A DNA stretch of 64,000 bases from a phage. The position numbers and the translations under genes were made by a program. Shown here piece by piece: positions 29,761 through 63,508 of this stretch; the first letter of the stretch is position 1; the number at the start of each line of letters is the position of its first letter. The notes beneath the pieces are model-generated. The model saw only the letters and a program-made list of their open reading frames with translations, was not told the origin of the DNA and did not search any database. Location: sequence record PZ386972.1; one strand, given 5' to 3'.

Positions 29761-29764
29761 CCAA

Positions 29765-31611: not shown

Positions 31612-31619
31612 AAATTCAT

Positions 31620-31648
31620 TTGCTTTCTCTCTTATTTATTGTTATAAT
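31620..31648 (+). promoter_or_regulatory. T5-type early promoter
   Basis: TTGCTT-17-TATAAT. Confidence 0.6.
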
Positions 31649-31678
31649 ATTTATATAAATTAATGAGAGGGAAGCCAA

Positions 31679-32178: not shown

Positions 32179-32179
32179 T

Positions 32180-32253
32180 GCTTCGGTAGCTTAGCGATCT
32201 AAAGCACTCGGCTGATAACCGAGAGATCGGGGGTTTAAATCCCTCCCGGAGTA
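32180..32253 (+). tRNA. tRNA-Ile (anticodon GAT) with atypical TTTAAAT T-loop
   Basis: Acceptor GCTTCGG/CCGGAGT, anticodon stem CTCGG/CCGAG, loop CTGATAA, T-arm GGGGG-TTTAAAT-CCCTC, CCA encoded. Confidence 0.7.
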
Positions 32254-32352
32254 CCAAATTTAGGAATTAAGACTATGCGTCCAGGAAAGTTTAAAAAAGC
32301 TAATTGGTCTAAAGAGTATAAAGAATACTTACTTAGTCTAGTAAAACATAAC

Positions 32353-32425
32353 AGTTAGTTGGCAGAGTGGTTATGCACCTCCTTCATACGGAGCGACTAC
32401 AGTGGTTCAAATCCACTACTAACTA
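32353..32425 (+). tRNA. tRNA with CAT anticodon (Met or Ile2)
   Basis: Acceptor AGTTAGT/ACTAACT, loop TTCATAC, T-arm AGTGG-TTCAAAT-CCACT, CCA encoded. Confidence 0.65.
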
Positions 32426-32465
32426 CCATTAAAAGAGCTAGAGATAGCTAAATTTAGGAGCAGCT

Positions 32466-48439: not shown

Positions 48440-49171
48440 ATGAGTATTAGTGAGAATTTAAAGACTATTATTAAGCTGGCTAAGAATGCAGACGGCAAAT
48501 GTGTTTCTGAACTAACTCCTGATGAAGCTCATGCAGTAGCATTCTGTTCTGAGTTTCATCCCGCAGCTTATACAGAAGCTGGAATTGTTAAATATAATAA
48601 AGAAGAAAAATTCGTAACTCTATCTCCTTCTTATATTGCAATGAGAAAGATCATCAATTCTGTTGGTGATAAGATTGTAGGGTTCAAGGCAGATTCATAT
48701 CATGTCTTTGCAGATCAGGAACTTCCAGTATTTAAAGAAGGAAATGTTAGAGTTGCACTAGAATTATATCCCGAGGAAAAGTTCATTCCACCTAAACGTT
48801 GTGAATATGATCATCTTCCTAGACTCCAAAGAAAAGATACTGGATTCCCTTATACAAAAGATGAAGTGTTGCTAGGGATTGCTTCTACGATTGCGCAGGT
48901 TCATCTATGTCTCGAAAAGAACCTAGAGATGCCATTAATCTTACAGTCTGCACATAAAGCAATGTTAAATGACTGGGATCAATTCTTTAAGATTATAGGA
49001 GCTGTCGGATTAGCACGTTTACTTCCTGCATTTGAGAACTCTGAAGTATTTGGCGAAGGTTCTTTCGGAACTGTAGATTATGATGCGCTAAAATCCCCAC
49101 ACTCCTATCTTGCAACTTTTCTCTTCATGGTCTCGAAGGGTATCGTTCTCAAATACAAGCGGAAGGAATAA
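48440..49171 (+). CDS. hypothetical protein
   Basis: ORF track. Confidence 0.45.
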   Translation: MSISENLKTIIKLAKNADGKCVSELTPDEAHAVAFCSEFHPAAYTEAGIVKYNKEEKFVTLSPSYIAMRKIINSVGDKIVGFKADSYHVFADQELPVFKEGNVRVALELYPEEKFIPPKRCEYDHLPRLQRKDTGFPYTKDEVLLGIASTIAQVHLCLEKNLEMPLILQSAHKAMLNDWDQFFKIIGAVGLARLLPAFENSEVFGEGSFGTVDYDALKSPHSYLATFLFMVSKGIVLKYKRKE

Positions 49172-49188
49172 ACGTTAACAAAATCTTC

Positions 49189-49218
49189 TTGACAACTCAT
49201 TAAGGTACATGTTATAAT
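49189..49218 (+). promoter_or_regulatory. promoter TTGACA-18-TATAAT directed into the gene-poor repeat locus
   Basis: Consensus hexamers; downstream 1.3 kb has no convincing plus-strand ORF. Confidence 0.5.
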
Positions 49219-49254
49219 AATCTCATAGATTAAAAACAACTTCTGTTTTTAGCT

Positions 49255-49536
49255 CTAGGCAACAAGATTATTGCTATCCCAACTCGAAGAGTACACCAGA
49301 GCCCCTGGCGCTAGGATGTATTCTGCAGCAGTTTTCACGGGATTAGCATACAGATCTTGAACGCCTAGAGCAGCAGACTTACGAGATTGGGGGATCTTAT
49401 ATTTAAAATAAAAGTAAAACTTTTGACCACATAATTTACATTCAAGATGATACACCTGTTGCCGCTCATCTGCTAGGATGGCACAACACTTTCCTAGAAA
49501 CTCCAGAGTTCTCACGAAATAATCACGAGATACCAC
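49255..49536 (-). CDS. small hypothetical protein (possible Zn-binding regulator), doubtful
   Basis: ORF track; CKLCGQKF motif; sits antisense to a promoter-driven region, so may be spurious. Confidence 0.3.
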   Translation of the reverse strand: MVSRDYFVRTLEFLGKCCAILADERQQVYHLECKLCGQKFYFYFKYKIPQSRKSAALGVQDLYANPVKTAAEYILAPGALVYSSSWDSNNLVA

Positions 49537-49544
49537 TCTTTCTA

Positions 49545-49625
49545 GGGCGGTTCTCCTAAGTTTCTAGGAACATATACTAGGCGGTTTAATACAGGGCGGT
49601 TATTGGGAGGGCGGTTATTTCTAGG
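49545..49625 (+). repeat. short direct repeats GGGCGGTT (x4) interleaved with TTTCTAGG(A) (x3)
   Basis: Seen in sequence. Confidence 0.6.
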
Positions 49626-49660
49626 AGACATTTTTTGAAAACACATTTCCAGAAATTACT

Positions 49661-50260
49661 GTCGGATTTGCACATTGTGTTTCTAGAAATTTATGGTCGG
49701 ATTTGCACAATCGCCTAAGTTTTTAGGAACATATAATCTCTTGAAAATGGCAGCATTATTTCGGGCCGAAGGCCCATGATTGCCTGAGTTTTTAGAGCCA
49801 CAAGAATTTTCACTTGTCAAGCTATTTTGCCCCATTTTGCTAATAAAATTTTACTTTATCTGCACTTATCTCAAATTAACCCAAATCTTCTCAACTCTTC
49901 TCCAAAATCCCCGCAAATCAGGTGCTCCGCACCAAACATGCGCCCCTCCCGCAGTTCCCCCAAATTTCTCTCGCTCTCTCAACTTCTCCCCAAACTCACA
50001 CAATCACACACCCTCTAATCGAAGTCACAAAAATCTTGTCGGATTCGCACATCTTAATCCTAGAAAAACCATGTCGGATTTGCACATACCCCACAGGATT
50101 CGAACGCAGTTCGTGATTGCTGGAGTTTTTAGGAAAATTCATTGTCGGATTTGCACACTATAAAAATTTTTCGGGTCGGATTTGCACACTACCAAAAATT
50201 GTCGGATTTGCACATACACGCCCCCGCGTAATCCATGGGGGCAAATGTCGGTTTTGCACA
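49661..50260 (+). repeat. array of 8 direct copies of the 14-mer GTCGGATTTGCACA (two with single substitutions), irregular spacing
   Basis: Copies at about 49661, 49696, 50038, 50073, 50144, 50175, 50201, 50247. Confidence 0.8.
49800..50035 (+). other. G-depleted, C/A-rich low-complexity tract on the plus strand
   Basis: About 235 nt with almost no G on the plus strand. Confidence 0.6.
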
Positions 50261-50285
50261 AAAGCGCAGGGCAATTGCCCTGCCC

Positions 50286-50450
50286 ACCTGAATGCAAATA
50301 AAAATGAGAATCGTTTGCATTTAAAAAGTGAAATGAGAATGATAATGATTCGCATTTAGAAAGTGAAATGATTCTCATTTAGAAAGTGGAATGATTCTCA
50401 TTTAGATAGTGAAATACAAATGATAATGATTCGCATTTAAGAACGGAAGT
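50286..50450 (+). repeat. iteron-like repeat cluster (ATGATTCTCATTTAGAAAGTG and GATAATGATTCGCATTTA units)
   Basis: Three to four tandem or inverted copies of about 20-bp units rich in AATGAGAAT/ATTCTCATT. Confidence 0.7.
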
Positions 50451-50470
50451 GAGAAACACTATTATTTAAG

Positions 50471-50479
50471 TTATCCACA
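50471..50479 (+). promoter_or_regulatory. DnaA box TTATCCACA
   Basis: Exact consensus 9-mer. Confidence 0.6.
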
Positions 50480-50543
50480 GACTTATTAACAGCACGATTT
50501 GACTTGACAGAATCCTAGCCATTTTGAGGCGTTATTAACAGAC

Positions 50544-50552
50544 TTATCCACA
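50544..50552 (+). promoter_or_regulatory. DnaA box TTATCCACA
   Basis: Exact consensus 9-mer; adjacent CTTATCCTA variant. Confidence 0.6.
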
Positions 50553-50945
50553 GCTTATCCTACTGTATAAATATACAGTATTCCTACGCAGTGAATAATT
50601 CTAATATAGCGTTAAAACGTCCTAGATCGCATTCTAACGCGTTTAATTTTGGTGGGGATACTAAAACAAGGGCAAAATTGGAGGAGGCTTGAAAATTAGT
50701 TAGCTCGCTAACGATCACACAAGGCGACACGTAACATCCTAATCATTAGCAGGCTAACCATCGCGGGCGCGGTCAAATAAGAATGATTCTCATTTGAGAA
50801 TTGGGGCACTTCCTGATAGTTGCGCCCCGTGATTATTACAGTAGTGGGCAACCGTTACGCTTTGCCCATTCCCGCCACTCATCTTGATGTCTAGACTTGC
50901 GACGGCGTACTAAAAACCGTTTATACCAGTGATTAAACCATCGTT

Positions 50946-51179
50946 TCATAAATCCTCCTCCGGTAGTCGATGCGTGATTTTTTCCTCCTCCCCATAGGAA
51001 TCCGCCAAATGCTGATAATAACCCTCGTGATCATAAATCACTTTATCATACTCGCCACGCTCGACCGCTTGCCGATTCTCTGGCGTATCGGGCACGTAAA
51101 AAACGTCTACCATCGTAGTAGTTTTGGTCACAATAATTTTATTGCTCATAGTAACTCCTAGTAAATATATTTTTGCCAA
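50946..51179 (-). CDS. hypothetical acidic protein
   Basis: ORF track; GGAGG RBS. Confidence 0.4.
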   Translation of the reverse strand: MAKIYLLGVTMSNKIIVTKTTTMVDVFYVPDTPENRQAVERGEYDKVIYDHEGYYQHLADSYGEEEKITHRLPEEDL

Positions 51180-51249
51180 TAGTGGCGAACGTTATCGCCA
51201 CCAGCGGAATCATTAGCTGCCTCAACATTACCAACGAAAATATATAATT

Positions 51250-51609
51250 TCATTGCGCCACCTTTCGAAACGCTGTTTCAATACTATCAGCCGTGGATTG
51301 AATATACGCGCCTTTCATTATCAGGCGCTCGGTGCATACCTTGCGGAAAATATTAATAAAATCCTCTTCATTTTCTGCAATCAATGCTTCCCCCATGACC
51401 TGAATATCACAAGATGCAAAGGTCAAAAATTGAAATGCTAGTTCACGGGCAACGACCGCATTGATTTTATAATGCGCCTTGCCCTCATAAATATTAATAA
51501 CGCCCTTGTAAGCTGGGGAAAGCTGATTTAAGTAATTTGCTAGTAATGCCGGACGGCAATTAGCAACAAAGCGATTGCCTTCATAAATTATCATTTGCAT
51601 AGCTCCCAA
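51250..51609 (-). CDS. hypothetical protein
   Basis: ORF track. Confidence 0.4.
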   Translation of the reverse strand: MGAMQMIIYEGNRFVANCRPALLANYLNQLSPAYKGVINIYEGKAHYKINAVVARELAFQFLTFASCDIQVMGEALIAENEEDFINIFRKVCTERLIMKGAYIQSTADSIETAFRKVAQ

Positions 51610-51836
51610 ATAGTTCCGCCGATGATCATTAGCTGACTAATAATTATCAGAATAAAACCAATTGAAGGCAGGACGCCCCAATATTGGAACGCCCTTTTAA
51701 TTTGTTGAATCATTTGTTAGCCTCCCAATCAGATAGCCAGATAAAAGCATAAAAATCCCCAATGAAAGGGGATCATTTTTAAATAAGGTGGCGGTAAAAC
51801 CGCCAACCATTGCAAGGATAATAATAATAACGCTTT

Positions 51837-52049
51837 TCATAGTACCCCACGAAAGGCCGCGTAAAAGGTGGCAAAGTGTTTAACCGTTTCAGCGATAACG
51901 TTGCCGCGCTTATCAAATTTCTTTTCTGTAACACGGAAGGCGTTTTTATTCCGCGCTACATATTCGATTTTACAATCAGGACGCTCAAACGTGTTTACAT
52001 CCACCAGCTTAAAGCCTTTCGAACGTGCAAGGGAAACGTTGCGAATCAT
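51837..52049 (-). CDS. hypothetical basic protein
   Basis: ORF track. Confidence 0.35.
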   Translation of the reverse strand: MIRNVSLARSKGFKLVDVNTFERPDCKIEYVARNKNAFRVTEKKFDKRGNVIAETVKHFATFYAAFRGVL

Positions 52050-52248
52050 TTTTTATTCTCCTTTACTAGTCATGCAGCCCAGCAGATAAGAAAATGCAGC
52101 GATACCCGCGCCAATAATAACCGCGTGGACACCGAAAGCTATTGCAAAAAGGGATAAAATAGCGCCCAAGATACCTGCTAGAATAGCTCGAAAAATAACC
52201 ATTTTCATTCTCCTAGTTAGTGGGGCGAAAGTAACGCCCCGTTATTAA

Positions 52249-52557
52249 TTACATTAAAACAATTTTAGCGGCTTGTTTTTTAGTACAGTGTTCCGCTTTC
52301 AGGGTATCCAGCAAAAAGCCCGCCGTTTGCTGATCGATTTTATCGGCATTATATAGTTCCTGAATGGTGTTATAGGTTTTAGCAATGCCGAACTCCTGCA
52401 CCATTTCATGAATGATGACGCGATTAGATACCCAACCTTGCGCGGTGAACAGATGACTAGCAGAAGAATAAGCAACCATTTTAAGCCTCCAAATTTTTGG
52501 GAAAATTTTTAATCCACCGTTTTGGTGTAAAGGCATTATAACAAAAAAGGCCACCAT
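52249..52557 (-). CDS. hypothetical protein (start uncertain, may be an internal ATG)
   Basis: ORF track; hairpin GGGGCG...CGCCCC just downstream. Confidence 0.35.
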   Translation of the reverse strand: MVAFFVIMPLHQNGGLKIFPKIWRLKMVAYSSASHLFTAQGWVSNRVIIHEMVQEFGIAKTYNTIQELYNADKIDQQTAGFLLDTLKAEHCTKKQAAKIVLM

Positions 52558-52584
52558 AAAAGGCGACCTTTACAAAACTTTACA

Positions 52585-53079
52585 TTAAACTACCTGTAAG
52601 GATTCAATATTGAAACATCGTTTCAATTCGTCATGCAAAACAGCATATTCCTCCCATCGGGTACTATCAGGAATATAAACAAGCTGTTTTAATCGGTTTG
52701 CATATATTACCGCTTTGTTATCGACTATCTCGACGCCGCCATATTTAATAATTAATTTCATGACGGAATTAATAGGATCTCCGCCGTTTACATATGTGCC
52801 GGATTTACTTAGCTGATAATGATAAAGGCTTGCATATACGTTTTCATTTTCATACCATTCGCCAGTTTCTTCGTCTTCATAGCCATCGCTACCAAAACGA
52901 GAAGCATTATCAACAGCCATTTCATGAGCAAAAGCGTCCAGATCCGTACCAGCAGGAACAAAATATTCCTCGGTATTCCCTTCCCCGCAATAGCCAGTAT
53001 GACAATCGACCAAAATGATCATATCATGTTTTGCCGTGCTCACTTCCCCTAGCGAGAAGCCGTATTTTTCCTCAGCCAT
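52585..53079 (-). CDS. hypothetical acidic protein
   Basis: ORF track, AGGAGG RBS. Confidence 0.45.
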   Translation of the reverse strand: MAEEKYGFSLGEVSTAKHDMIILVDCHTGYCGEGNTEEYFVPAGTDLDAFAHEMAVDNASRFGSDGYEDEETGEWYENENVYASLYHYQLSKSGTYVNGGDPINSVMKLIIKYGGVEIVDNKAVIYANRLKQLVYIPDSTRWEEYAVLHDELKRCFNIESLQVV

Positions 53080-53144
53080 TTATTAGCCTCCTATTAGTTA
53101 ACAAGGGAATAGTAGAGCGGGGAAATAATCCCCGCTAGTTATTA

Positions 53145-54155
53145 TTACTCGCTTTCGGTGCTAGTGGTAAAAGTAGAAATATCAATACCTTTTACCATTT
53201 CATCAATCATTTCAGCGATGTTAAAACTTTGCACCATTTCTAGCATTGCCGCCTCCATAGCTGCACCTGCCACCGCTTTCGCCTTTTGGTTAGTCGGGGC
53301 GTACTGGTCAACCGCTACACTTAGCAGGTTAGCGATCACTACACGACCAATCGGCGTATCAATATAACCTTTAATCATGAACGGCGCTTTTTTAGCCGCT
53401 ACTTTCGTGATTTGAGTCAGTGCAATTTTACCCGCTTCCAGTTTTGCAGCATTTACAACAGCGGATTTATTGGCGGCAACGATGTTAGCAATCTTGGTCA
53501 TGGTATTTTTTCCTTTGTTTTCAGTAGTTTGAGTGTTAACGCTTTGAGTGTTAGAATTTACATCATGTTTTTCTATATTGTCAATAGGCTGATTTTCATC
53601 TTTCCAGAAAGAAAAACCAGCGCTTTCAATATCTCCGTCATAAATATACGAGTATAGTTCCGAGGGTAACAAAAAATTACCATCGCCATCAAAAGCCATT
53701 ACAGCGGTATATTGAGATCCGTCATCATCCGGCTTATGCCACCCAGCGGGTAAATACTTCCAGATAACATTTAAAAATCCCTCAATACTAGAAAGTCCAT
53801 TTATCAGATCAAGTCCAATAAGCTCAAAACCATTTATATTAAATGATTGACGGCCTGAATTGCTATGATACGCAACAATATTATTGCCCTGCGCAATAAT
53901 AAAATCGGCATCCGGCCCCGCTCCCCTGCCTGTAAAGATATGGCAATCCCGATTATATAAAACTAACGTTGCCCCTTGCTTATATAGTGGTAGAAAACTA
54001 TCAATATCATAAGCGTCATAATCATCAAAAAAGTTTTGATGAATAGTTTCAGCCTTGTTAATAAAATGTTTAATACTGGTTGTCCTGCTACCGTCCAGCA
54101 GGTTGCGCAATGCACCTTTTAAAACGGTGGCATTATCAGGTTTATAAAGCCTCAT
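53145..54155 (-). CDS. hypothetical protein (336 aa), first gene of the minus-strand pre-early block
   Basis: ORF track, GAGGGAGG RBS; terminator-like hairpin GCGGGGA...TCCCCGC downstream. Confidence 0.5.
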   Translation of the reverse strand: MRLYKPDNATVLKGALRNLLDGSRTTSIKHFINKAETIHQNFFDDYDAYDIDSFLPLYKQGATLVLYNRDCHIFTGRGAGPDADFIIAQGNNIVAYHSNSGRQSFNINGFELIGLDLINGLSSIEGFLNVIWKYLPAGWHKPDDDGSQYTAVMAFDGDGNFLLPSELYSYIYDGDIESAGFSFWKDENQPIDNIEKHDVNSNTQSVNTQTTENKGKNTMTKIANIVAANKSAVVNAAKLEAGKIALTQITKVAAKKAPFMIKGYIDTPIGRVVIANLLSVAVDQYAPTNQKAKAVAGAAMEAAMLEMVQSFNIAEMIDEMVKGIDISTFTTSTESE

Positions 54156-54456
54156 TTGTTCGGCCTCCCTCGTTAATCGGTGAGTGAATGATATAGATAT
54201 TTTCTTTCTAGGGGCAAATATTATTTTACCTTTTTACCTTTTTATTTTCCTTGCCTAGCGCCTAGTTTTATGCTAACCGCGCAGCGGTGCAATAAAGAGC
54301 AAAACACGGCGAAGCCACCAGGGCGACGGGTGAAGGCTTTACTTTAATATTACTCCACCGCATTTAGCTCGTTAGAAAGCGTTTTAGGCCGCTTAAAATT
54401 GATTGCAGTTGTTAACACTACCTTTCTACCCTGTATATTTATACAGTAGAATAACC

Positions 54457-54465
54457 TGTGGATAA
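54457..54465 (-). promoter_or_regulatory. DnaA box (TGTGGATAA on plus strand)
   Basis: Exact consensus. Confidence 0.6.
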
Positions 54466-54468
54466 GTC

Positions 54469-54477
54469 TGTGGATAA
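54469..54477 (-). promoter_or_regulatory. DnaA box (TGTGGATAA on plus strand)
   Basis: Exact consensus, 12 nt from the previous box. Confidence 0.6.
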
Positions 54478-54529
54478 GTCTTTATATCGCCGCCTATCGT
54501 GTCAAATCATTTTGTGCTGTTAATAAACT

Positions 54530-54538
54530 TGTGGATAA
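54530..54538 (-). promoter_or_regulatory. DnaA box (TGTGGATAA on plus strand)
   Basis: Exact consensus. Confidence 0.6.
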
Positions 54539-54649
54539 CTTAAATGATAGTGGTTCTCACTTAGGCCGATAGTTTCTTATAGTTATTATTTCTCATTAAT
54601 TTATATGTATATTATATATCATGAAATAGTTAGTTGGCTAATGAGATTT

Positions 54650-54830
54650 TCCGTGATTAATAGTCTGCTAATAGTTTAAGCCGTTACAATCCACCAGCAT
54701 GATTATCATCCTAGCAATTATTAGTCTGCTATCTTTCCGATGCATACTAACAAATAAAAGTCAATTAATTTATTTCATAAAATAAGTAGTTATCCACTGG
54801 AAAATAAAAGTCAAGTGGATAACTAGGAAA
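54650..54830 (+). repeat. AT-rich control region with direct repeats (ATTAnTAGTCTGCTA x2, AATAAAAGTCAA x2) and two convergent DnaA-like boxes
   Basis: TTATCCACT at about 54790 and its inverse AGTGGATAA at about 54814. Confidence 0.55.
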
Positions 54831-55280
54831 ATTTCATTTTTGCTTTTGGGGATAAGTTATCAACAAGGCTAGAATGCGCCTAAAACGCCCTAGAATGCGA
54901 TGAAAGTTTTAGTCATGCCATTGCATTGCCTACCCTCGTTTATCGCTACCACGAGCTTTTTAGGTTTTGTCAAGTAGGGCAAAGCAAATATAAATGAAAA
55001 AATTACTTGCCTATCTGCTATGTTTTGTGGTATTCGCGCGCCCGTTTCTTTTAATTTTAGTGCGCCGCGCCCAGGTCGCCGCACGCCGTCCGGTGGATCG
55101 TGTCTTTACATTTCTTTACAAAATTAAGGTTGCGCCCTTTTCGGGAATCCCCTATTATTTATCACGTAGGGCGGCAATGACGAACTACACGGCGGGAAGT
55201 TTACCGCCGCGCTCTTTAAAAATTGGGTACATCTTAAAGCCTATCGGCGGTAAACTTATACATTATAAGGAATCGACGAT

Positions 55281-55484
55281 ATGAAACAAACTTTATTGAT
55301 CACTGGTAAACCTAGCAAGGCACTGGACAGCAAAACAAAAAATTTGTTGACAGTAGCGCAAAGATCGGTAAAATATCGATTTAAGCAGTACAAGAAAGGT
55401 CGCCAGCAAGGTCTGGAAATGATCTGGCGAAATATTATGATTGACCTGAAAGAAAATCATAAAAAATCTCAAAAAATTGTTTGA
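55281..55484 (+). CDS. small basic protein
   Basis: ORF track. Confidence 0.4.
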   Translation: MKQTLLITGKPSKALDSKTKNLLTVAQRSVKYRFKQYKKGRQQGLEMIWRNIMIDLKENHKKSQKIV

Positions 55485-55711
55485 CAACCTAGCCGATAGG
55501 TTTTAAGATGTACTCAGTTCGATAAGAGCGATAACTTGATAAAATTTGACGGTCGGTGCTTACCATAATGCATCCCGCCCCCTAACTGGGATATAGCGGC
55601 CTACGTGGAGTTCTTTAAATTGAATATACTGGCGAGCGGATTGTTACTTATTACCTGCTACTTTCTAGCAGGTAATGCGGAACAATCCCCAAATAACTAG
55701 GAGTTTATATT

Positions 55712-55963
55712 ATGCAAAACGTTATCACCGCGCCGAAAGTTGGTCAGTCTGTTTTTATTCCTTTCGTTACTAAAACGGATGAACTAACCGGAAAAGCCGA
55801 ACGTATTAAAGGTGCGGCGCTTATGCCGTTTGATACAATCGACGCGGTATATGCTGAAAATGAACGCAGTAACAACGGCAAAACCGTTTTTAGCGTTCGG
55901 GTTAAATCCGGCGATGTTGTAAAGGTTGTTCAACGCAACGAAAAATGGGAAGCTGTTTTATAA
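55712..55963 (+). CDS. hypothetical protein
   Basis: ORF track, AGGAG RBS. Confidence 0.45.
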   Translation: MQNVITAPKVGQSVFIPFVTKTDELTGKAERIKGAALMPFDTIDAVYAENERSNNGKTVFSVRVKSGDVVKVVQRNEKWEAVL

Positions 55964-56061
55964 TTTAGTGTTAACTTTATATACCCCAGTAGTTAGGGGT
56001 ATATAACGATTAACATTATGTTAATCTTATCCCTTAAATTAAACTAATAGGAGTTTTTACC

Positions 56062-56469
56062 ATGACTAACGTTAAAACCGCAAAATTCGCTTGGAATGAA
56101 GAAAACACCCAGAAAGCTGTTTCTATGTACCAGCAGTTAATCAATGAAAACGGTTTAGATTTCGCAAATAGTGACGGGCTGAAAGAGATTGCAAAAGCAG
56201 TAGGCGCGGCTTCTCCCGTGTCAGTTCGCTCAAAATTGACCAGTGCAAAAGCCTACCAAAAAAGCGATAAGCCTCGTAAAGTTGGCGGCGGTAGTTCTGT
56301 ACGCAAGGCGCATTATGTGCGCGTTATCGCTAAACACGCCATTGATTCCGGCATTATCAAAGACGCTGATGATCTGGCAAGTCTGGAAAGTGCAAAACTT
56401 GAAACGCTGGATGCGGTAGCGCAACTGTTAGGCGTTGCTGATGAAGTGAAACAAGCCGCAGGAGAATAA
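56062..56469 (+). CDS. hypothetical protein
   Basis: ORF track, AGGAG RBS. Confidence 0.45.
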   Translation: MTNVKTAKFAWNEENTQKAVSMYQQLINENGLDFANSDGLKEIAKAVGAASPVSVRSKLTSAKAYQKSDKPRKVGGGSSVRKAHYVRVIAKHAIDSGIIKDADDLASLESAKLETLDAVAQLLGVADEVKQAAGE

Positions 56470-56477
56470 TTATATAC

Positions 56478-56508
56478 CTTGCCCCCTTCTAGTGAGGGGG
56501 CAATAATA
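56478..56508 (+). terminator. rho-independent terminator
   Basis: CTTGCCCCC...GGGGGCAA hairpin. Confidence 0.55.
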
Positions 56509-56558
56509 TAACTGTTTAGCGATAGTTATTTTCTTCCCTTAAATCAGGAGTTTTAAAA

Positions 56559-56756
56559 ATGATTTTCTTTCCTACTGAATCCTTAATTCTAGGCTTGTTT
56601 ATTATGGCGGCCTCGTTATTGTTCGCTTATTTTCAAAATGATTTAGATTCGTATTATTTTAAACGTAAATCTAAGTTAGCAAAACGTTTGGGCTTGCTTT
56701 GTTTTATCGCTGCCGTTGCTTGTGGTGTTAGTTCTAGCCTTATGCCTTTAAATTAA
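56559..56756 (+). CDS. small membrane protein (2 TM)
   Basis: ORF track. Confidence 0.4.
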   Translation: MIFFPTESLILGLFIMAASLLFAYFQNDLDSYYFKRKSKLAKRLGLLCFIAAVACGVSSSLMPLN

Positions 56757-56846
56757 TGTTGCAAATTATAACGCCTATTATTCGAGGCGTTATATTTGGC
56801 AATATTGCCGTTATTAATCTAATCCCTTTAATGGAGTTTTATTATT

Positions 56847-58511
56847 ATGATTATTTCCGCAGAAAAACAAACCGTTATCCTGAAAATGGCCGCTGACTTT
56901 AATTTCTATGGTAAACGTCTGCGCGCCACTAAACTGGAGGTCTGCGACGATATATCAAAAGCGGTATATGATACTACAAAACACTCGACCGCTATCTGCG
57001 ACTGGCTGGAAGCAAATAAACCAGTTAAACCGAAAGCGGCGAAAGTAGCAAAAGCCATTAAAAACGATGAGCGTCCAGAAGCGGCGGGGATTGTTTCTAG
57101 CACGGTTGAACAGTGGGAAGTAAAACAAGGCAAACGCTTTATTATTACGTCGATTCAGAATAATACTTTCCCGCATAAAAACTTTTTAGCCTCATTGGAA
57201 AAATTCGCTGAATATATCGGTGCTGATTTGCTTGTTTCTAAGTATATTTATAATAAAAACGGCTTCCAAAATGGCGAGGGTGCGGATGGAATCAAATATG
57301 ATTCCGCGTTCGATAAATATATTTGCAGCAAAAACGTGTTTTTAAATAACCGCCGTTTTGCTTTCATGGCTGAAATTAACGTGTTACCAACCGCAGACTA
57401 TCCGCTTTCTGGATTCGCTGAAACTGCAACGGCGCTTAATCTGGAAGGTCTGGCAATCGGTCACGCTAAAATCACCGCTGAAAGCGTGCCAGCTCTCAAA
57501 GGTGAAGTAGTACGCCGTATGTATTCAACGGGCACGGCAACGCTCAAAAACTACATTCAGCAAAAAGCAGGGCAAAAAGCGGAGGCGCTTCATAACTTTG
57601 GTGCGCTGATTGTCGAGTTCGATGATGATGGTGAGTTTTTTGTGCGCCAGCTTGAAACAATGGATGAAAGCGGGGTGTTTTATGATCTGAATGTTTGCGC
57701 TACTCCCGCAGGATGCTATGAAACATCGGGGCATGTGCTAGGCTTGCAATATGGTGACATACACGCCGAAAAACTGGATGATGATTGTGCCGTTGCGTCA
57801 TGGGCTGGCGAAAATAGCTTGCTTGATATTCTTAAACCAAAATATCAGTTTATCCATGACGTGCATGATTTTACATCCCGCAATCATCATAATCGTGCAT
57901 CCGGTGTATTCCTAGCTAAACAATACGCCGCCGGACGTGATAAAGTTCTGGATGATCTTATCGATACTGGTCGCGTGCTGGAATCGATGGAACGTGATTT
58001 TAGTCAAACGATTATTGTGGAATCTAACCATGATTTAGCGTTATCCCGCTGGTTGGATGATCGTAATGCTAACATTAAAGACGATCCAGCAAACGCGGAA
58101 CTATATCACCGCCTGAATGCCGCGATTTACGGAGCTATTGCAGAAAAAGACGATACTTTCAACGTGCTAGATTATGCATTGCGCAAGGTTGCAGGTTGTG
58201 AGTTTAACGCCATTTTCCTAACAACTGACCAATCATTTAAAATTGCAGGCATCGAGTGTGGCGTACACGGTCACAACGGCATTAACGGCAGCCGTGGCAA
58301 TCCTAAACAATTTAAGAAATTGGGCAAATTGAACACCGGACACACTCACACCGCCAGCATTTACGGCGGGGTATATACCGCTGGCGTTGCTGGTAGTCTC
58401 GATATGGGTTACAACGTTGGCGCGTCAAGCTGGACGCAAACGCATTTAATTACCTATGCAAACGGGCAGCGCACTTTGATCGATTTTAAGAATGGTAAAT
58501 TCTTTGCGTAA
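56847..58511 (+). CDS. A1: A1-like pre-early protein, metallophosphoesterase-fold nuclease
   Basis: 554 aa; calcineurin-like motifs GDIHAE, ESNHD, GHTHT; size and placement beside dmp-like gene match T5 A1 (from memory). Confidence 0.6.
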   Translation: MIISAEKQTVILKMAADFNFYGKRLRATKLEVCDDISKAVYDTTKHSTAICDWLEANKPVKPKAAKVAKAIKNDERPEAAGIVSSTVEQWEVKQGKRFIITSIQNNTFPHKNFLASLEKFAEYIGADLLVSKYIYNKNGFQNGEGADGIKYDSAFDKYICSKNVFLNNRRFAFMAEINVLPTADYPLSGFAETATALNLEGLAIGHAKITAESVPALKGEVVRRMYSTGTATLKNYIQQKAGQKAEALHNFGALIVEFDDDGEFFVRQLETMDESGVFYDLNVCATPAGCYETSGHVLGLQYGDIHAEKLDDDCAVASWAGENSLLDILKPKYQFIHDVHDFTSRNHHNRASGVFLAKQYAAGRDKVLDDLIDTGRVLESMERDFSQTIIVESNHDLALSRWLDDRNANIKDDPANAELYHRLNAAIYGAIAEKDDTFNVLDYALRKVAGCEFNAIFLTTDQSFKIAGIECGVHGHNGINGSRGNPKQFKKLGKLNTGHTHTASIYGGVYTAGVAGSLDMGYNVGASSWTQTHLITYANGQRTLIDFKNGKFFA

Positions 58512-58564
58512 TTAAATTATTCCCTAGCGGCTTGAAATATAGCCGCTATCACAGGAGTCAAAAA

Positions 58565-58822
58565 ATGAAAGTTACATTACCCAAAACATTGGACGAAAAA
58601 GTATTCATTTCACCGGATGAAATGGAATCTGATAAAGTTTACAGCTTCGGGCCTATCCTAGCCGCCAAAACTAATACGGATGGTATTATTTCCGTCGATT
58701 CCCGTGATAACGATATTGTCCCTTTTGATGATGATGGTGCTTTTTATGAGTGGCTAAGCGATAATAATTTACCCGTAAACGGTGAATTAACGCCATACCA
58801 GATGCAGATTATTATCAAATAA
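58565..58822 (+). CDS. hypothetical acidic protein
   Basis: Internal ATG of track ORF 58532..58822 with GGAG RBS. Confidence 0.4.
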   Translation: MKVTLPKTLDEKVFISPDEMESDKVYSFGPILAAKTNTDGIISVDSRDNDIVPFDDDGAFYEWLSDNNLPVNGELTPYQMQIIIK

Positions 58823-58860
58823 ATTAAATCCATTATCAAACTAACTGGAGTTTTATAAAT

Positions 58861-59259
58861 ATGAAAAAGCAAAATATCCCATTCGATCGCGCTCAGTCCT
58901 CAATTGTTCTGGTTTATTCTAATGGCGAACGTTACCACGTCGAGGCGGGGCACGTTATTGATGACCTATTAGATTTCAATGACGCTTTGCAGGTTACTAC
59001 CTTTGCCTATACGCAAGGCAAACTAACCAGCCATATTAAGGCAAAAGGCGTTTATGTTGACACGGTGAAACAAGAAACGGTTATCATCGATGCCGTAAAA
59101 TCCGGCCTAGCCTTTGCAGTTGTCGCGCCTTGCCTCGCTTGCCTTGATGATCAATTGATTAGTGCAAAGGTCTACACATGTGCGGGGATTCGTTCTAGCG
59201 TATCCGGTGAGGATGTTAGTTTTATCGCTGATGCTCTCGCTTTTGGTCTGGCGTTCTAA
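58861..59259 (+). CDS. hypothetical protein (132 aa; possibly A2-like)
   Basis: ORF track; position between A1-like and dmp-like genes. Confidence 0.35.
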   Translation: MKKQNIPFDRAQSSIVLVYSNGERYHVEAGHVIDDLLDFNDALQVTTFAYTQGKLTSHIKAKGVYVDTVKQETVIIDAVKSGLAFAVVAPCLACLDDQLISAKVYTCAGIRSSVSGEDVSFIADALAFGLAF

Positions 59260-59273
59260 TAGTTAATTGAACA

Positions 59274-59306
59274 TAGCCCACTAATAAAATATAATTAGTG
59301 GGCTAG
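59274..59306 (+). terminator. hairpin, possible terminator
   Basis: AGCCCACTAAT...ATTAGTGGGCT inverted repeat, no clear U-run. Confidence 0.35.
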
Positions 59307-59346
59307 ATTGAATTAATCTAATCCCTTAAATGGAGAACGTAACAAA

Positions 59347-60081
59347 ATGAATCAAGTTAAAACGAATATTACCCGTAATTTCCCGCATATTTCCCGCGTC
59401 ATGATTTGGGATTTAGACGGCACTATCGTTAATTCCTTCCATCGTGTAGCGCCTTGCTTTGATAGCGAGGGCAATTTAGATTTAAATAAGTATAAAAATG
59501 AAGCCTGCAAACATCATTTAATAATGCAAGATACTTTATTGCCATTAGTTGAATATATGCGCCAGTGCATGAATGACGCAAATACTTTAAACATTATTTG
59601 CACCGCTCGACTAATGAGCAAGTCGGACTATTATTATTTGCGCAAACAAGGCTTGCGCGGTCGTGGTAATAGTAATATTCGCGTGTTTTCCCGTGATACA
59701 CTGCATAAATATTTTGAGGCTGATAAAGTTAGCGAAATATACCACAGCAAGGACGCAGTATATAAATCTTATTATTTTGAATTATTTAAACAACTATATC
59801 CGAACGCTGATTTTACAATGATTGATGATCATAAAGGCGTGCTATCAGCGGCAGCATCATACGGATTTAAAACGCTGGACGCGCAAGCCGTTAACGATAT
59901 TCTATCAATCGGCGTGACATTAATAGGTGAAACCTTTATTGATGAATCTCTCGACGATGATAATGATTATCAATTCCTAGCTGACCGCTTAAAGCTATGC
60001 TGGGAAGGTATGACCGAGGAAGAACGCGCAGAATATAGTTGCAGCCCGCAACAATATATCGAGAAATTAAAAGTTGCGTAA
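59347..60081 (+). CDS. dmp: HAD-type 5'-deoxyribonucleotidase (dmp-like)
   Basis: 244 aa with WDLDGTI HAD motif; size matches T5 dmp (from memory). Confidence 0.6.
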   Translation: MNQVKTNITRNFPHISRVMIWDLDGTIVNSFHRVAPCFDSEGNLDLNKYKNEACKHHLIMQDTLLPLVEYMRQCMNDANTLNIICTARLMSKSDYYYLRKQGLRGRGNSNIRVFSRDTLHKYFEADKVSEIYHSKDAVYKSYYFELFKQLYPNADFTMIDDHKGVLSAAASYGFKTLDAQAVNDILSIGVTLIGETFIDESLDDDNDYQFLADRLKLCWEGMTEEERAEYSCSPQQYIEKLKVA

Positions 60082-60099
60082 TAATTAAAGTTGAAATAG

Positions 60100-60136
60100 T
60101 TTCATCCTGCAATTAAAATGATTGCAGGATGAAACA
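60100..60136. terminator. bidirectional terminator hairpin between convergent gene blocks
   Basis: GTTTCATCCTGCAAT...ATTGCAGGATGAAAC perfect 15-bp inverted repeat. Confidence 0.65.
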
Positions 60137-60245
60137 ATTACCCTGCTAATAGTAACGGGGGTGGCGGTTAGCAGACTAAGTATTTTCGCCGGAGGCAGTG
60201 GACACACCTCCATGTGTAATCTTATGAAATTTGGCAAAAGTCAGA

Positions 60246-61747: not shown

Positions 61748-63508
61748 ATGGGTTTTTTCGCTGGAAAATATAGTGATGGTAAAACTGTATTATCACTAAA
61801 TACTGCTAGTGGTGGAGATATTAATGCTCATAAAAACCCTAGTACTAATACTATTTTTCATTCTGATATGCCCTTCGTATTAGTAGAAAGCACTTATGAG
61901 AGTGCATTAAGTAGTGCTGGGAATGGTTTCTATGTATGCCAGATGCCTTCTGCAATAGCTAACTTAAAGAGTAATGATCCTGGTAGAGTTATACTAACAG
62001 CTATAGAAGTTAATGGTACTCATCGTGGTTTTTTGAATGGTACTCAATCTCAAGTTGGGCAGTTTCTTTCTTCTACTCAGGCCGATCCTTTTAGATCATT
62101 TGCTAGCTTAAGTCAAACTGCTGGATTTGCTTTTGGTAATAGTCTAGCTTCAGGTACTTATTCCTATAATAGTTCTCTAGGGCATGAAGAATCTATAGCT
62201 AGAAGTGGTACTGGCGGTACTGTACTACATAGTACTTATCATGGTGTTGTAAGACCAGGTGGTGGTGCACCTGTAGGTGCTACTGTAGCTGAAACTTTCA
62301 AACAACTAGGGTATCCTATAGGAAGTACTTCTGTTCCTATATCTTCAGGTGATACGTACTATTGGGATCCTAACTGGATGGCTCCAATGGGGGCTGGTAA
62401 ACGTGGCCATAACTGGTTTTATGTATGTAATTCTAATATTAGGGGGTATGCTGGATACAAACAAACAATCCCTAGCAATATAGTACAGCACTTTAGTGAT
62501 GGGGGGTATAGATATGTTTGTAGAGGTTCTACTACTAAGTTAGTAAGTCAATCAGCTAATACAAAAATAGTTCAAGATGGCTACGGAGTAACCCCTACAA
62601 AAGTTATATGGTATGTACTAAACCTAAGGTATTCTAATGGTGGTATGTCTGTTTCTAGCAATCCCTTTACAGGTTCTGACATAATAATTTCTCCGTCCAA
62701 CTTTACTATTAAGGGAGTTAAGTTATCTACTACTGGTTGGAAGTTTATTAATCAGAATGCTCTAGGGAATCTAAGTTCTCGTGCTGATATGGAGTATATT
62801 GGAGTAAACGCTGCGCATGGTGGAGTGTTTGGGGATACTACTGGAAGATGTGAATTTGTATGCTCTAACAAAGGATCTATATGGGCACCAGTCAACTATA
62901 GTGGTACAAGAGCACAACTTAGTATTTATAAGTTCTCTGCTAGTAAGACCTGGTATGTAAACTCTAATAATAATACTATTGGTAATGAGAATGGTGTTGT
63001 CTGGGGACCTTCATCAATACCTTTACGCCTATTATCCGGTAATGTGGCTAGTGCCTATATTGGTAATGATATTACTCCGACCTATCCGGGCACTGGTAAT
63101 GTTTATAAATCCCTAGCAACAGTTGGATTAGGCCTACCCAATAATAACTCTACTGTTATACTAACTAGTGAAATATTATCGGGTAACCTTAATGTTGCTG
63201 GGTTACCAGTAAATACGTGGAATGGTAGTGTTTTTCAGGTGCAAGGAAGAAAATCACAAAGTTATACAGGAGGAGATGCTATATTTCACCAAATTTTAGT
63301 TCTTCCTCCCGGAAAGTTAGTACCTTTCCACACTACCTCCGCCTATAAATATACTCCAGATAGCGGAGCTTTTAGTAGAAACAGTTTTATATATACAATA
63401 AAAAATCTTGGTAATGGTAATGCAGAATTAGGTGTTATACTACACGTTAGTTTAGGTTCCGCAGTTTTCTTACCGAGACTACGAGTAACAGTTCAACGCC
63501 TTACCTAA
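61748..63508 (+). CDS. receptor-binding tail protein (pb5/Oad-like), by synteny
   Basis: 586 aa, Gly/Ser/Thr/Asn-rich; adjacent and divergent to llp-like gene. Confidence 0.45.

What the first reader, a model, noticed from the sequence alone, without database searches (positions are those of the whole stretch)
54160..55280. 1.1 kb divergent control region for the pre-early module with DnaA boxes, direct repeats and GC-rich hairpins
No credible ORF between the divergently transcribed 53145..54155 (-) and 55281.. (+) blocks. The region contains three inverted DnaA boxes, a convergent DnaA-like pair at about 54790 and 54814, duplicated AT-rich 12-16-mers, and an unusually GC-rich stretch (55030-55230) with palindromes GCGCGCC/GGCGCGC and CGGCGG...CCGCCG. 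This is likely where host factors control the first genes expressed after injection.
Basis: partly seen in the sequence, partly recalled or inferred. Interest (0 to 1): 0.6.

Follow-up and report, generated by a model that had tools for sequence, protein, structure and literature searches.

The report
T5-type terminal-repeat noncoding control hub
This is the conserved non-coding centre of the terminal repeat of a T5-like phage: it holds start signals for the first genes expressed and predicted docking sites for the host proteins DnaA and LexA, and it has already been described in phage T5 without any functional test.

Summary
Window 54160-55280 is a gene-free, strongly conserved 1.1 kb spacer between divergent pre-early genes of a T5-like phage. 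It corresponds to "Repeat Regions 1+2" of the T5 left terminal repeat (Wang 2005; Davison 2020), fused here because no HNH homing-endonuclease gene is inserted.

It contains:
- four phased DnaA boxes
- a second set of DnaA-like boxes
- an AT-rich stretch with duplicated 13-15-mers
- a GC-rich segment with hairpins

The leftward promoter of the gene-011 homolog lies inside, as does a family-wide conserved promoter (TTGCGC-17-TATTAT) for hdi. The two strong characterized rightward promoters, P-H22 and P-D/E20, lie outside it. The DnaA-box module is an inverted second copy of the module at the injection-stop region 3.85 kb away. The two copies evolve independently and share only motif positions, which points to protein binding.

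Two things appear new:
- Each module begins with a near-consensus SOS (LexA) box, conserved as far as Vibrio and Proteus relatives.
- Repeat IRA and its partner IRA' bracket hdi and co-vary, consistent with an RNA stem.

Verdict: a known kind of element, function untested, modest interest.

The parts
54188..54217 (-). Sigma-70 promoter-like site TTGCCC-18-TATCAT for the gene-011 homolog (53145-54155). A phased A/T-rich tract lies upstream at 54218-54250. Expected start is near 54181.
   Evidence: Promoter scan. Maps onto the promoter annotated in T5 at NC_005859 6411-6489 / AY587007 T5P4. Listed as experimentally characterized.
54362..54395 (.). Inverted repeat IRB', partner of IRB at about 54866-54905.
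   Evidence: 88% match to T5 IRB in opposite orientation. Exact 11-nt arms at 54379-54389 / 54878-54888. T5 annotation of IRB/IRB'.
54429..54448 (.). SOS-box (LexA-box) look-alike CCCTGTATATTTATACAGTA, at the outer end of the DnaA-box module. Its twin in the injection-stop copy is at 50561-50580 (TACTGTATAAATATACAGTA).
   Evidence: 17/20 and 19/20 matches to the consensus TACTGTATATATATACAGTA. CTGT-N8-ACAG occurs 3 times in 64 kb against 0.73 expected. These are by far the two best sites in the window. The arms are nearly invariant in 68 copies, including Klebsiella, Proteus and Vibrio phages.
54457..54538 (-). Four DnaA boxes in two pairs, each pair separated by 3 bp: 54457-65 and 54469-77 (both TTATCCACA), 54518-26 (TTATTAACA, non-consensus) and 54530-38 (TTATCCACA). 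All have the same orientation.
   Evidence: Across 30 relatives, boxes 1, 2 and 4 fit TTWTNCACA in 27, 28 and 26 cases. Box 2 varies only at the degenerate positions.
54431..54591 (.). The IRC-spacer-IRD module of T5 Repeat Region 2. It is an inverted copy of 50418-50578 in the injection-stop region.
   Evidence: 161-nt arms, 75% complementary, 3852 nt apart. Alignment of 61 copies. T5 annotation. Davison 2020. No concerted evolution between the copies.
54554..54583 (+). Promoter-like site TTCTCA-18-TATAGT directly after DnaA box 4. Its spacer (GCCGATAG) resembles that of P-D/E20.
   Evidence: Promoter scan. Direct repeat D19. A -10-like hexamer is kept 18 nt downstream of TTCTCA in two of the three allelic forms seen downstream of box 4 (my reading of the alignment). 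Function untested.
54592..54786 (.). AT-rich segment (28.6% GC) with duplicated 13-15-mers. It holds the 'empty' site where relatives carry an HNH homing-endonuclease gene (T5 hegG).
   Evidence: T5 5420-6017 is absent here. Insertions in other loci. HNH_3 domain in the inserted ORFs.
54787..54865 (.). Second group of DnaA-like boxes: a palindrome at 54787-54801 / 54811-54825 (TTATCCACT twice, convergent), then back-to-back TTATCCCCA and TTATCAACA at 54847-54865.
   Evidence: There are two allelic forms. This form is shared with Klebsiella-type relatives. T5 carries a different palindrome, GGTCTTGA...TCAAGACC, at the same place.
54866..54905 (.). IRB, containing CTAGAATGCG twice. A related motif (CTAAAACCGCTTAGAATCG) recurs in Klebsiella-type and Vibrio relatives.
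55007..55042 (+). 'Block X': TTGCCT-18-TATTCG followed by GCGCGCC. Its upstream half is typical of T5 promoters (AAAAAATTACTTGCCT), but the -10 is poor. Role unknown.
   Evidence: Flanks invariant and spacer variable in 28 sequences. Counterparts in L040, Proteus and Vibrio phages.
55103..55158 (+). 'P_Y', the candidate hdi promoter: TCTTTAC twice (55103, 55113), -35 TTGCGC (55130-55135), a 17-nt spacer, -10 TATTAT (55153-55158). Expected start is near 55165.
   Evidence: Hexamers invariant while the spacer varies, at 16-17 nt. The same architecture occurs in a Klebsiella-type relative and, in both orientations, in a Proteus phage. Not annotated in the T5 records.
55190..55209 (+). GC-rich hairpin CGGCGG-GAAGTTTA-CCGCCG in the predicted hdi leader. 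Its 3' half also pairs perfectly (13 bp) with 55245-55257.
   Evidence: The loop is inverted in two relatives.
55210..55248 (+). IRA, the inverted partner of IRA' (55492-55530). IRA' overlaps the -10 and start of P-D/E20. The pair brackets hdi (55281-55484) and P-H22.
   Evidence: 39 nt, 82% complementary. 4 pairs show changes on both sides, reached by 0 of 500 shuffles. Haplotypes CG/TG/TA are seen and CA never. Both arms are replaced in concert in L040. An analogous bracket exists in a Proteus phage. The predicted RNA fold contains the duplex.

Best explanation
The region is the central non-coding hub of the terminal repeat (first-step-transfer DNA) of a T5-like phage. It is homologous to T5 Repeat Regions 1 and 2, which are contiguous here because no homing-endonuclease gene is inserted. 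It is a mosaic rather than one element.

(1) Divergent promoters. The leftward promoter of the gene-011 homolog is at 54188-54217. A family-conserved rightward promoter, P_Y, is at 55130-55158 and most likely drives hdi, the FtsZ inhibitor.

(2) A module of about 160 bp (54429-54591). It consists of a near-consensus SOS box followed after 10 bp by four same-oriented DnaA boxes in two 3-bp-spaced pairs. It is a second, inverted copy of the module at the injection-stop region.
- I infer that both copies are landing pads for host DnaA and probably LexA.
- The resulting nucleoprotein complexes would organise or hold the entered DNA during the pause between first- and second-step transfer.
- At most they would modulate nearby weak promoters.

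(3) An AT-rich stretch that serves as a homing-endonuclease target in relatives, followed by a second group of DnaA-like boxes.

(4) The GC-rich part is the hdi promoter and leader. Its repeat IRA pairs, in the rightward transcript, with IRA' beyond hdi. That would give a duplex of about 24-39 bp, a plausible RNase III or mRNA-end-pairing site.

Shown here: homology, anatomy, enrichment, conservation patterns and arm co-variation. Inferred: all binding, all transcription starts and all functions.
For: Identity:
- 459 phage records match, all T5-like.
- The region is colinear with T5 7509-4473, minus the hegG insert.
- T5 records annotate IRA, IRB, IRC and IRD and the promoters at the corresponding places.
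- Davison 2020 describes Repeat Regions 1-3 and paired DnaA boxes with 3-bp gaps.

Protein-binding reading of the module:
- The module copies within one genome are no more alike (73.9%) than copies from different genomes (73.5%). Orthologous copies are 84-90% alike. Sequence motifs are conserved, not complementarity between the copies.
- Box substitutions follow the DnaA consensus degeneracy: box 2 is TTATCCACA, TTTTACACA or TTTTGCACA in 28 of 30 relatives.
- The palindrome keeps CTG(T)...(A)CAG nearly invariant while its centre varies, which is the LexA-box pattern.
- The box-palindrome pairing, with a gap of about 10 bp, recurs in Klebsiella, Proteus and Vibrio Demerecviridae whose A2 protein is only 38-66% identical.

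Promoters.

IRA/IRA'.

Non-coding status.

Strong purifying selection on the spacer.
Against: - No binding, transcription-start or genetic data exist for this region in any T5-like phage.
- Davison reports that 'Type 4' relatives lack IRC/IRD altogether and that boxes in IRC are the ones lost. The copy in this region may therefore be dispensable.
- T5 itself has replaced the second, palindromic DnaA-like group by another palindrome.
- The promoter-like site that overlaps the SOS box (54412-54439) is not conserved in T5.
- Box 3 is non-consensus in this phage.
- The + strand wobble bias in IRA/IRA' is weak: 6 positions against 3. Arm co-variation could also come from gene conversion.
- The heterology index used a LexA matrix recalled from memory.
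Confidence: 0.6

Rival explanations
1. One reading: a classical divergent operator region in which host DnaA, bound to the boxes, directly switches the pre-early promoters on or off.
For: - A 10/12 promoter-like site (TTAACA-16-TATATT, 54412-54439) has its -10 inside the SOS box, with the four DnaA boxes immediately downstream. Another (54554-54583) starts 16 nt after box 4.
- In a Proteus relative a perfect DnaA box lies in the spacer of a TTGACA promoter-like site.
Against: - The strong characterized promoters P-H22 and P-D/E20 are 0.8-1 kb away and outside the region.
- The boxes are 240-320 bp from the 011 promoter.
- The same module sits at the injection-stop region with no downstream gene.
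- The -35 of the 54412 site is lost in T5.
- Pre-early shut-off is attributed to phage protein A1.
Confidence: 0.2
2. The module is read by a phage protein, for example the DNA-binding protein A2 that is needed for second-step transfer. Its resemblance to DnaA and LexA boxes would then be incidental.
For: - A2 binds double-stranded DNA, and A1 and A2 are required to resume transfer.
- All hosts of the family share the same DnaA and LexA motifs, so comparative data cannot exclude a phage ligand.
Against: - Substitutions track the DnaA consensus degeneracy and the CTGT-N8-ACAG rule.
- The motifs stay the same while A2 diverges to 38-43% identity.
Confidence: 0.2
3. A replication origin of the oriC or plasmid type: a DnaA-box cluster next to an AT-rich unwinding region with repeated 13-15-mers.
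For: - Boxes adjoin a 28.6% GC stretch with repeated 13-15-mers.
- The paired module adjoins iteron-like arrays (8 x TGTCGGATTTGCACAT, 6 x 23-mers).
Against: - According to Davison 2020, electron microscopy placed T5 origins near the genome centre, and the replication genes are not present during first-step transfer.
- The AT-rich part is interrupted or replaced by HNH genes or other alleles in relatives.
- No initiator gene lies nearby.
Confidence: 0.07
4. The two inverted modules are terminal inverted repeats of a mobile or invertible cassette that carries the variable leftward genes (011-017).
For: - The 3.85 kb between the arms is the most variable part of the repeat.
- The arms are 131-161 bp inverted repeats.
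Against: - Order and orientation are the same in all 40+ loci examined.
- No transposase or invertase gene was found in the ORF list or in the annotated relatives.
- The arms are only about 74% alike and show no concerted evolution.
- The arrangement is fixed across the whole family.
Confidence: 0.04
5. The spacer hides small protein-coding genes, as many GenBank records annotate (T5.009 and others).
For: - Records list 2-7 'hypothetical proteins' under the match.
- T5.009 is annotated in NC_005859.
- The first 19 codons of the 96-aa ORF are conserved.
Against: - ORF lengths range from 17 to 96 aa.
- The start codon is missing in T5 and two others.
- Indels are not multiples of three.
- The T5.009-like frame is broken or lacks a start in at least 11 of 28 sequences.
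- Conservation is uniform rather than codon-patterned.
- The conserved 'N-terminus' coincides with promoter-like Block X.
- No Pfam family passes threshold.
Confidence: 0.03

Closest known systems
Repeat Regions 1 and 2 of the phage T5 left terminal repeat (IRA/IRA', IRB/IRB', IRC-spacer-IRD; Wang et al. 2005 annotation; Davison 2020 preprint 10.1101/866236)
   Same: - Same position between the gene-011 and hdi homologs, and same order of repeats.
- Paired DnaA boxes 3 bp apart.
- Inverted relation to the injection-stop module.
- 82-87% nucleotide identity to T5.
   Different: - No HNH gene splits the two regions here.
- Three of the four module boxes are perfect.
- This phage carries the DnaA-like palindrome at 54787-54825, where T5 has a different palindrome.
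T5 injection stop signal region (Repeat Region 3; Heusterspreute et al. 1987, as cited)
   Same: Shares the palindrome plus four-box module, in inverted orientation, and an IRB-like motif.
   Different: - It lies 3.85 kb further in on the entering DNA, not at the shear point.
- It lacks the DRE and DRD repeat arrays.
- Its boxes fit the strict DnaA consensus better than those of the injection-stop copy.
Bacterial DnaA-box clusters (oriC, datA, DARS)
   Same: Several 9-mers matching TTWTNCACA, closely and regularly spaced in one orientation, next to AT-rich DNA.
   Different: - Box period is 12 bp (9 + 3). From general knowledge of oriC, not checked here, its arrays have 2-bp gaps.
- No homologous DNA occurs in 5,426 E. 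coli genomes.
- No evidence of unwinding or of a replication role.
SOS (LexA) operators such as those of sulA, recA and umuDC
   Same: A 20-mer palindrome matching TACTGTATATATATACAGTA at 17-19 of 20 positions, with nearly invariant CTGT/ACAG arms.
   Different: - It is not clearly placed over a conserved promoter.
- It occurs in a virulent phage.
- It is always coupled to DnaA boxes and is present twice in inverted orientation.
Long-range RNA stems that bracket a cistron and are cut by RNase III (rRNA precursor stems; phage T7 early mRNA sites). This comparison rests on general knowledge.
   Same: The two arms flank one small gene. The predicted duplex has at least 24 continuous pairs, and co-variation keeps the pairing.
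   Different: - No cleavage data exist.
- The 3' arm doubles as the core of promoter P-D/E20.
- Only transcripts that start upstream of 55210 would contain both arms.

Membership tests
T5 terminal-repeat Repeat Regions 1+2 | Lies in the terminal repeat between the gene-011 and T5.008 (hdi) homologs of a T5-like phage | tested here: met
   Colinear blastn map to NC_005859. Pfam DUF7566 and DUF7416 on the flanking genes. A2, A1 and dmp lie downstream.
T5 terminal-repeat Repeat Regions 1+2 | IRC-spacer-IRD is an inverted copy of IRD'-spacer-IRC' at the injection-stop region | tested here: met
   Arms 54431-54591 / 50418-50578, 161 nt, 75% complementary. 61-copy alignment.
T5 terminal-repeat Repeat Regions 1+2 | DnaA or DnaA-like boxes in pairs separated by 3 bp | tested here: met
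   54457-65 / 54469-77 and 54518-26 / 54530-38.
T5 terminal-repeat Repeat Regions 1+2 | IRA/IRA' and IRB/IRB' are present in the T5 order | tested here: met
T5 terminal-repeat Repeat Regions 1+2 | Constant 52-bp spacer between IRC and IRD (Davison 2020) | tested here: inconclusive
   Box 2 to box 3 is 40 nt, and the alignment of 61 copies has almost no indels in the spacer. The exact IRC and IRD borders of T5 were not transferred base by base.
DnaA-binding box cluster | 9-mers matching TTWTNCACA, more numerous than chance | tested here: met
   3 perfect boxes in 82 bp. 6 occur in 64 kb against about 0.76 expected. Conservation follows the consensus degeneracy.
DnaA-binding box cluster | DnaA protein actually binds | not testable with these tools
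   Needs footprinting, gel shift or ChIP.
SOS (LexA) operator | CTGT-N8-ACAG palindrome with an AT-rich centre, close to the 20-mer consensus | tested here: met
   17/20 and 19/20 matches. Best two sites in the window. Arms nearly invariant in 68 copies.
SOS (LexA) operator | The box overlaps the -35, -10 or start of a promoter that it represses | tested here: inconclusive
   A 10/12 promoter-like site at 54412-54439 overlaps it, but its -35 is not conserved in T5. In Proteus and Vibrio relatives the box abuts Block X.
SOS (LexA) operator | LexA binds, and there is a RecA-dependent response | not testable with these tools
   Needs gel shift or footprinting, and infection of lexA(Def) and lexA(Ind-) hosts.
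Sigma-70 divergent promoter region | Outward-facing promoters at both ends of the spacer | tested here: met
   54188-54217 (-) by scan and by homology to a characterized T5 promoter. 55130-55158 (+) by conservation of hexamers and spacing across genera. Start sites were not measured.
Replication origin (DnaA-dependent) | DnaA boxes next to an unwinding element, with initiation mapped there | tested here: inconclusive
   The AT-rich neighbour is present but is replaceable in relatives. Literature cited places the origins elsewhere. Initiation is not testable here.
Known RNA families (Rfam 15) | Covariance-model match at or near the gathering score | tested here: not met
   The best hits are far below threshold: 26 bits against 90 in the window, and none near threshold in L040.
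RNase III-type bracketing stem | At least 20 bp of RNA duplex formed by sequences flanking a cistron, kept by co-variation | tested here: met
   In the inner 24 pairs only 2 of about 670 cells fail to pair, and 3 of these pairs (4 in the whole 39-pair helix) show changes on both sides, a count no shuffle of 500 reached. The fold contains the duplex. The arms are replaced in concert in L040.
RNase III-type bracketing stem | Both arms are co-transcribed and cleaved by RNase III | not testable with these tools
   Needs 5'/3'-end mapping in wild-type and rnc hosts.

The most novel reading that the evidence does not exclude
The conserved module is a composite landing pad for two host proteins. A high-affinity SOS (LexA) box, which I could not find reported for T5-like phages, is coupled at a fixed gap of about 10 bp to phased DnaA boxes. 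The module is present twice in inverted orientation on the first DNA to enter the cell.

Co-occupancy by LexA and DnaA would set or stabilise the pause between first- and second-step transfer. Alternatively it would gate weak promoters in the hub, tying pre-early expression to the host's SOS and DnaA state. That expression includes Hdi, an FtsZ inhibitor that acts like the LexA-controlled SulA.

In addition, the hdi cistron would be excised or stabilised through an RNA stem formed by IRA and IRA'.
Probability: 0.25. Interest if true: 0.7.

Novelty: already known. Interest (0 to 1): 0.35.

Why it matters
How T5 stops after injecting 8% of its genome, and then restarts, has been open since the 1960s, and the cis-acting signals remain untested.

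This region holds the second copy of the candidate signal. Here that copy has the cleaner DnaA boxes. The module also carries a near-perfect LexA box conserved from Escherichia to Vibrio phages.

That gives two concrete host factors and a handful of point mutations to test. Practically, the analysis also shows that small 'hypothetical proteins' annotated in this spacer in many phage genomes are probably not genes.

Tried and rejected
- Rfam scans of the window (49000-56500) and of the divergent relative L040 found nothing near threshold.
- No tRNA or tmRNA lies in the region.
- Hidden-gene reading: rejected by ORF tracing in 28 relatives and by Pfam.
- Structured leader RNA in L040: the fold is no more stable than shuffles, z = -1.2.
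- Origin in host DNA: the module has no match in 5,426 E. coli genomes.
- Pairing between the two modules as a DNA or RNA structure: rejected, because the copies do not co-evolve.
- IRA as a leftward duplicate of promoter P-D/E20: rejected. The -35 is missing and the spacer is 12-13 nt here, and the -35 is likewise missing in L040 (my reading).
- A sigma-28 reading of the recurring GCCGATAG motif was considered and dropped as a weak match (my reading of the sequence only).
- A strand-bias test for RNA pairing (G.U against A.C) with 13 extra metagenome loci stayed inconclusive, at 6 positions against 3.
- Literature searches for LexA or SOS boxes in T5-like phages found nothing. Davison 2015, Wang 2005 and Heusterspreute 1987 could not be read, so prior mention there cannot be excluded.
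Full report
**What the window is**

The 1.2 kb around the finding matches 459 phage records. They are overwhelmingly T5-like phages of Salmonella, Escherichia and Klebsiella, with the best matches at 92-95% identity. Against T5 itself (NC_005859) the window runs in reverse orientation:
- 53141-54561 maps to T5 7509-6098.
- 54760-58567 maps to T5 5419-1647.
- 58813-60204 maps to T5 1380-1.

The finding therefore lies in the terminal repeat, the DNA that enters the cell first. It sits between the homolog of gene 011 (53145-54155, minus strand, Pfam DUF7566) and the homolog of T5.008 (55281-55484, Pfam DUF7416). T5.008 is hdi, which encodes an inhibitor of FtsZ.

T5 5420-6017 carries the HNH endonuclease gene hegG and has no counterpart here. 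In Davison's 2020 preprint this spacer is "Repeat Region 1" plus "Repeat Region 2". He notes that the two are one region in phages without the HNH insert.

**Check of the observation**

- **ORFs.** No ORF in the spacer behaves like a gene. The 96-aa ORF ranges from 17 to 96 aa in 28 relatives and lacks a start codon in T5 and two others. The T5.009-like 35-aa ORF is broken or startless in at least 11 of 28. By contrast hdi is intact at 67 aa in 23 of the 28 (five diverged relatives carry a different ORF or another start), with synonymous and conservative changes.
- **DnaA boxes.** Perfect TTATCCACA lies at 54457, 54469 and 54530 on the minus strand. The window holds six perfect boxes against about 0.76 expected, and two of the others are at 50471 and 50544.
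- **Convergent pair.** It is real (54790 and 54814, TTATCCACT, inside a 15-nt palindrome). TTATCCCCA and TTATCAACA follow back to back at 54847-54865.
- **Duplicated AT-rich words.** They are exact: AAATAAAAGTCAA twice and a 15-mer twice.
- **Base composition.** 55030-55230 is 51% GC, the top 0.5% of 200-nt windows. 54560-54800 is 28.6% GC, the bottom 1%.
- **Palindromes.** The CGGCGG/CCGCCG hairpin exists and has a third copy at 55245. "GCGCGCC/GGCGCGC" is one site read on both strands.
- **Conservation.** Among nine colinear relatives the spacer is 93-98% conserved, against 80-91% for the adjacent gene.

**The DnaA-box module**

Window 54431-54591 is an inverted copy (161 nt, 75% complementary) of 50418-50578, which lies in the region homologous to the T5 injection stop signal. 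This is the IRC-spacer-IRD / IRD'-spacer-IRC' pair of the T5 literature.

An alignment of 61 copies shows a fixed design:
- a 16-bp palindrome;
- then 10 bp;
- then two boxes 3 bp apart;
- then a spacer with a conserved TGTCAA;
- then two more boxes 3 bp apart;
- then CTTAAATGATAGTG.TTCTCAC.

Three results bear on mechanism.
1. The two copies in one genome are no more alike (73.9%) than copies from different genomes (73.5%). Orthologous copies are 84% and 90% alike. The copies do not co-evolve. What is kept is a set of motif positions, as expected for protein binding sites and not for a stem between the copies.
2. In the copy inside the finding, boxes 1, 2 and 4 fit the strict consensus TTWTNCACA in 27, 28 and 26 of 30 relatives. 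Box 2 switches between TTATCCACA, TTTTACACA and TTTTGCACA, so it varies only where DnaA tolerates change. In the injection-stop copy, boxes 2 and 3 are mostly TTATTAACA or TTATCAACA.
3. The design recurs in Klebsiella, Proteus and Vibrio members of the family, whose A2 protein is only 38-66% identical.

**An SOS box**

The 16-bp palindrome is CTGTATATTTATACAG at 54431 and CTGTATAAATATACAG at 50563. As 20-mers they match the LexA consensus TACTGTATATATATACAGTA at 17 and 19 positions.
- CTGT-N8-ACAG occurs three times in the window against 0.73 expected.
- With an approximate heterology index these are the two best sites in 64 kb, scoring 1.1 and 4.0 against 9.3 for the next. The matrix was built from SOS boxes I recalled from memory, so the values are rough.
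- In 68 copies, including the distant genera, the CTG(T) and (A)CAG arms are nearly invariant while the centre varies (ATATTTAT, ATAAATAT, ATATCCAT, TTATTTAT, ATATAATT, AAACCTTT).
- The Davison preprint never mentions LexA or SOS. Three literature searches linked no T5-like phage to a LexA box. Older subscription papers could not be read.

**Promoters**

The scan finds TTGCCC-18-TATCAT at 54217-54188 on the minus strand. This is the place of the T5 promoter annotated upstream of gene 011, which a 2026 preprint counts among three experimentally characterized pre-early promoters.

The other two, P-H22 and P-D/E20, map to 55347-55374 and 55481-55509. Both are outside the finding.

Inside it, 55103-55158 reads TCTTTAC-N3-TCTTTAC-N10-TTGCGC-N17-TATTAT.
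- The hexamers are invariant in 28 sequences while the spacer varies in sequence and between 16 and 17 nt.
- The same architecture is kept in a Klebsiella-type relative.
- It is kept in both directions in a Proteus phage.
- Because hdi starts upstream of P-H22's start point, it needs such a promoter. This is inference; no T5 record annotates it.

A second conserved block (55007-55042, TTGCCT-18-TATTCG-CGCGCC) looks like a T5 promoter upstream but has a poor -10. It is conserved family-wide and its role is unknown.

**The GC-rich part and IRA**

IRA (55210-55248) is complementary to IRA' (55492-55530), which overlaps the -10 and start of P-D/E20. The pair brackets hdi.
- On 28 sequences, only two cells in the inner 24 pairs fail to form a Watson-Crick or G.U pair on the + strand. 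Four pairs in the helix show changes on both sides, which none of 500 shuffles reached.
- At one pair the haplotypes are C-G, T-G and T-A, never C-A.
- In the Klebsiella-type relative L040 both arms carry a very different sequence yet remain complementary. A Proteus phage has an analogous bracket around two small genes.
- The leftward copy lacks a -35, so it is not a second promoter (my reading).
- A rightward transcript from 55166 to 55560 is predicted to fold with this duplex.
- The strand bias of single changes is only suggestive, at 6 positions giving G.U against 3 giving A.C. Gene conversion between the arms is an alternative.

I read this as a probable RNA stem, possibly an RNase III site. 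That function is unproven.

**Other anatomy**

- Relatives carry HNH_3 endonuclease genes at two sites in the spacer: about 54672/54760 (T5, L004, L009) and about 55058/55105 (L027, L034).
- The palindromic DnaA-like group at 54787-54825 has two allelic forms. T5 carries the other one.
- No Rfam family matches.
- The module has no counterpart in E. coli genomes.

**Verdict**

It is, however, a described feature of T5-like phages, DnaA boxes included. The control-region reading is half right: promoters sit at both ends, but the major ones lie elsewhere. The DnaA boxes belong to a duplicated host-factor module that the literature ties, without experiments, to two-step injection.

I rate the finding as already known and of modest interest. 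The SOS box and the hdi-bracketing stem are the parts worth testing.

Noticed in passing
window 50561-50580 and 54429-54448: Near-consensus SOS (LexA) boxes sit at the outer end of both DnaA-box modules. They are conserved in Klebsiella, Proteus and Vibrio relatives and are not mentioned in the T5 literature I could read.
   Followed up: yes
window 49650-50450: The injection-stop region next to the paired module holds iteron-like arrays: 8 copies of TGTCGGATTTGCACAT and 6 copies of a 23-mer, AATGATTCTCATTTAGAAAGTGG.
   Followed up: no
window ~54672-54760 and ~55058-55105; L004 5199-5717, L009 5192-5716, L027 5697-6038: Relatives use two separate insertion sites for HNH_3 homing-endonuclease genes. 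Both sites are empty in this phage.
   Followed up: partly
window 55347-55374 within 55281-55484: The strong promoter P-H22 (TTGACA-16-TAAAAT) lies inside the coding sequence of hdi, which is itself clearly under protein-level selection.
   Followed up: partly
window 55210-55222; L046 5863 and 6037; L040 ~5793 and ~6277; L047 ~4676: The motif (A/C)GCTCTTTAA(A/C/G) recurs downstream of pre-early promoter-like sites across genera, often just after a hairpin. It could be a pause, attenuator or binding signal.
   Followed up: no
alignment A1, rows L021 and L022, window 55196-55203: The loop of the CGGCGG/CCGCCG hairpin is reverse-complemented in two relatives (GAAGTTTA becomes TAAACTTC). This looks like a hairpin-templated inversion.
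   Followed up: no
window 60204 onward: T5 position 1 maps to window 60204, yet the window continues into further genes, including a 586-aa ORF at 61748-63508. The source assembly therefore has the terminal repeat collapsed or is circularly permuted.
   Followed up: no
window 22030-32428: A cluster of 22 tRNA genes, as expected for the early region of a T5-like genome.
   Followed up: no
L045 4826-4851, 5729-5754 and 6037-6062; L040 5401-5436: The IRB-type motif CTAAAACCGCTTAGAATCG is conserved in Vibrio and Klebsiella-type relatives. In L040 it forms a perfect 36-nt palindrome. In the Vibrio phage two copies bracket a small gene.
   Followed up: no
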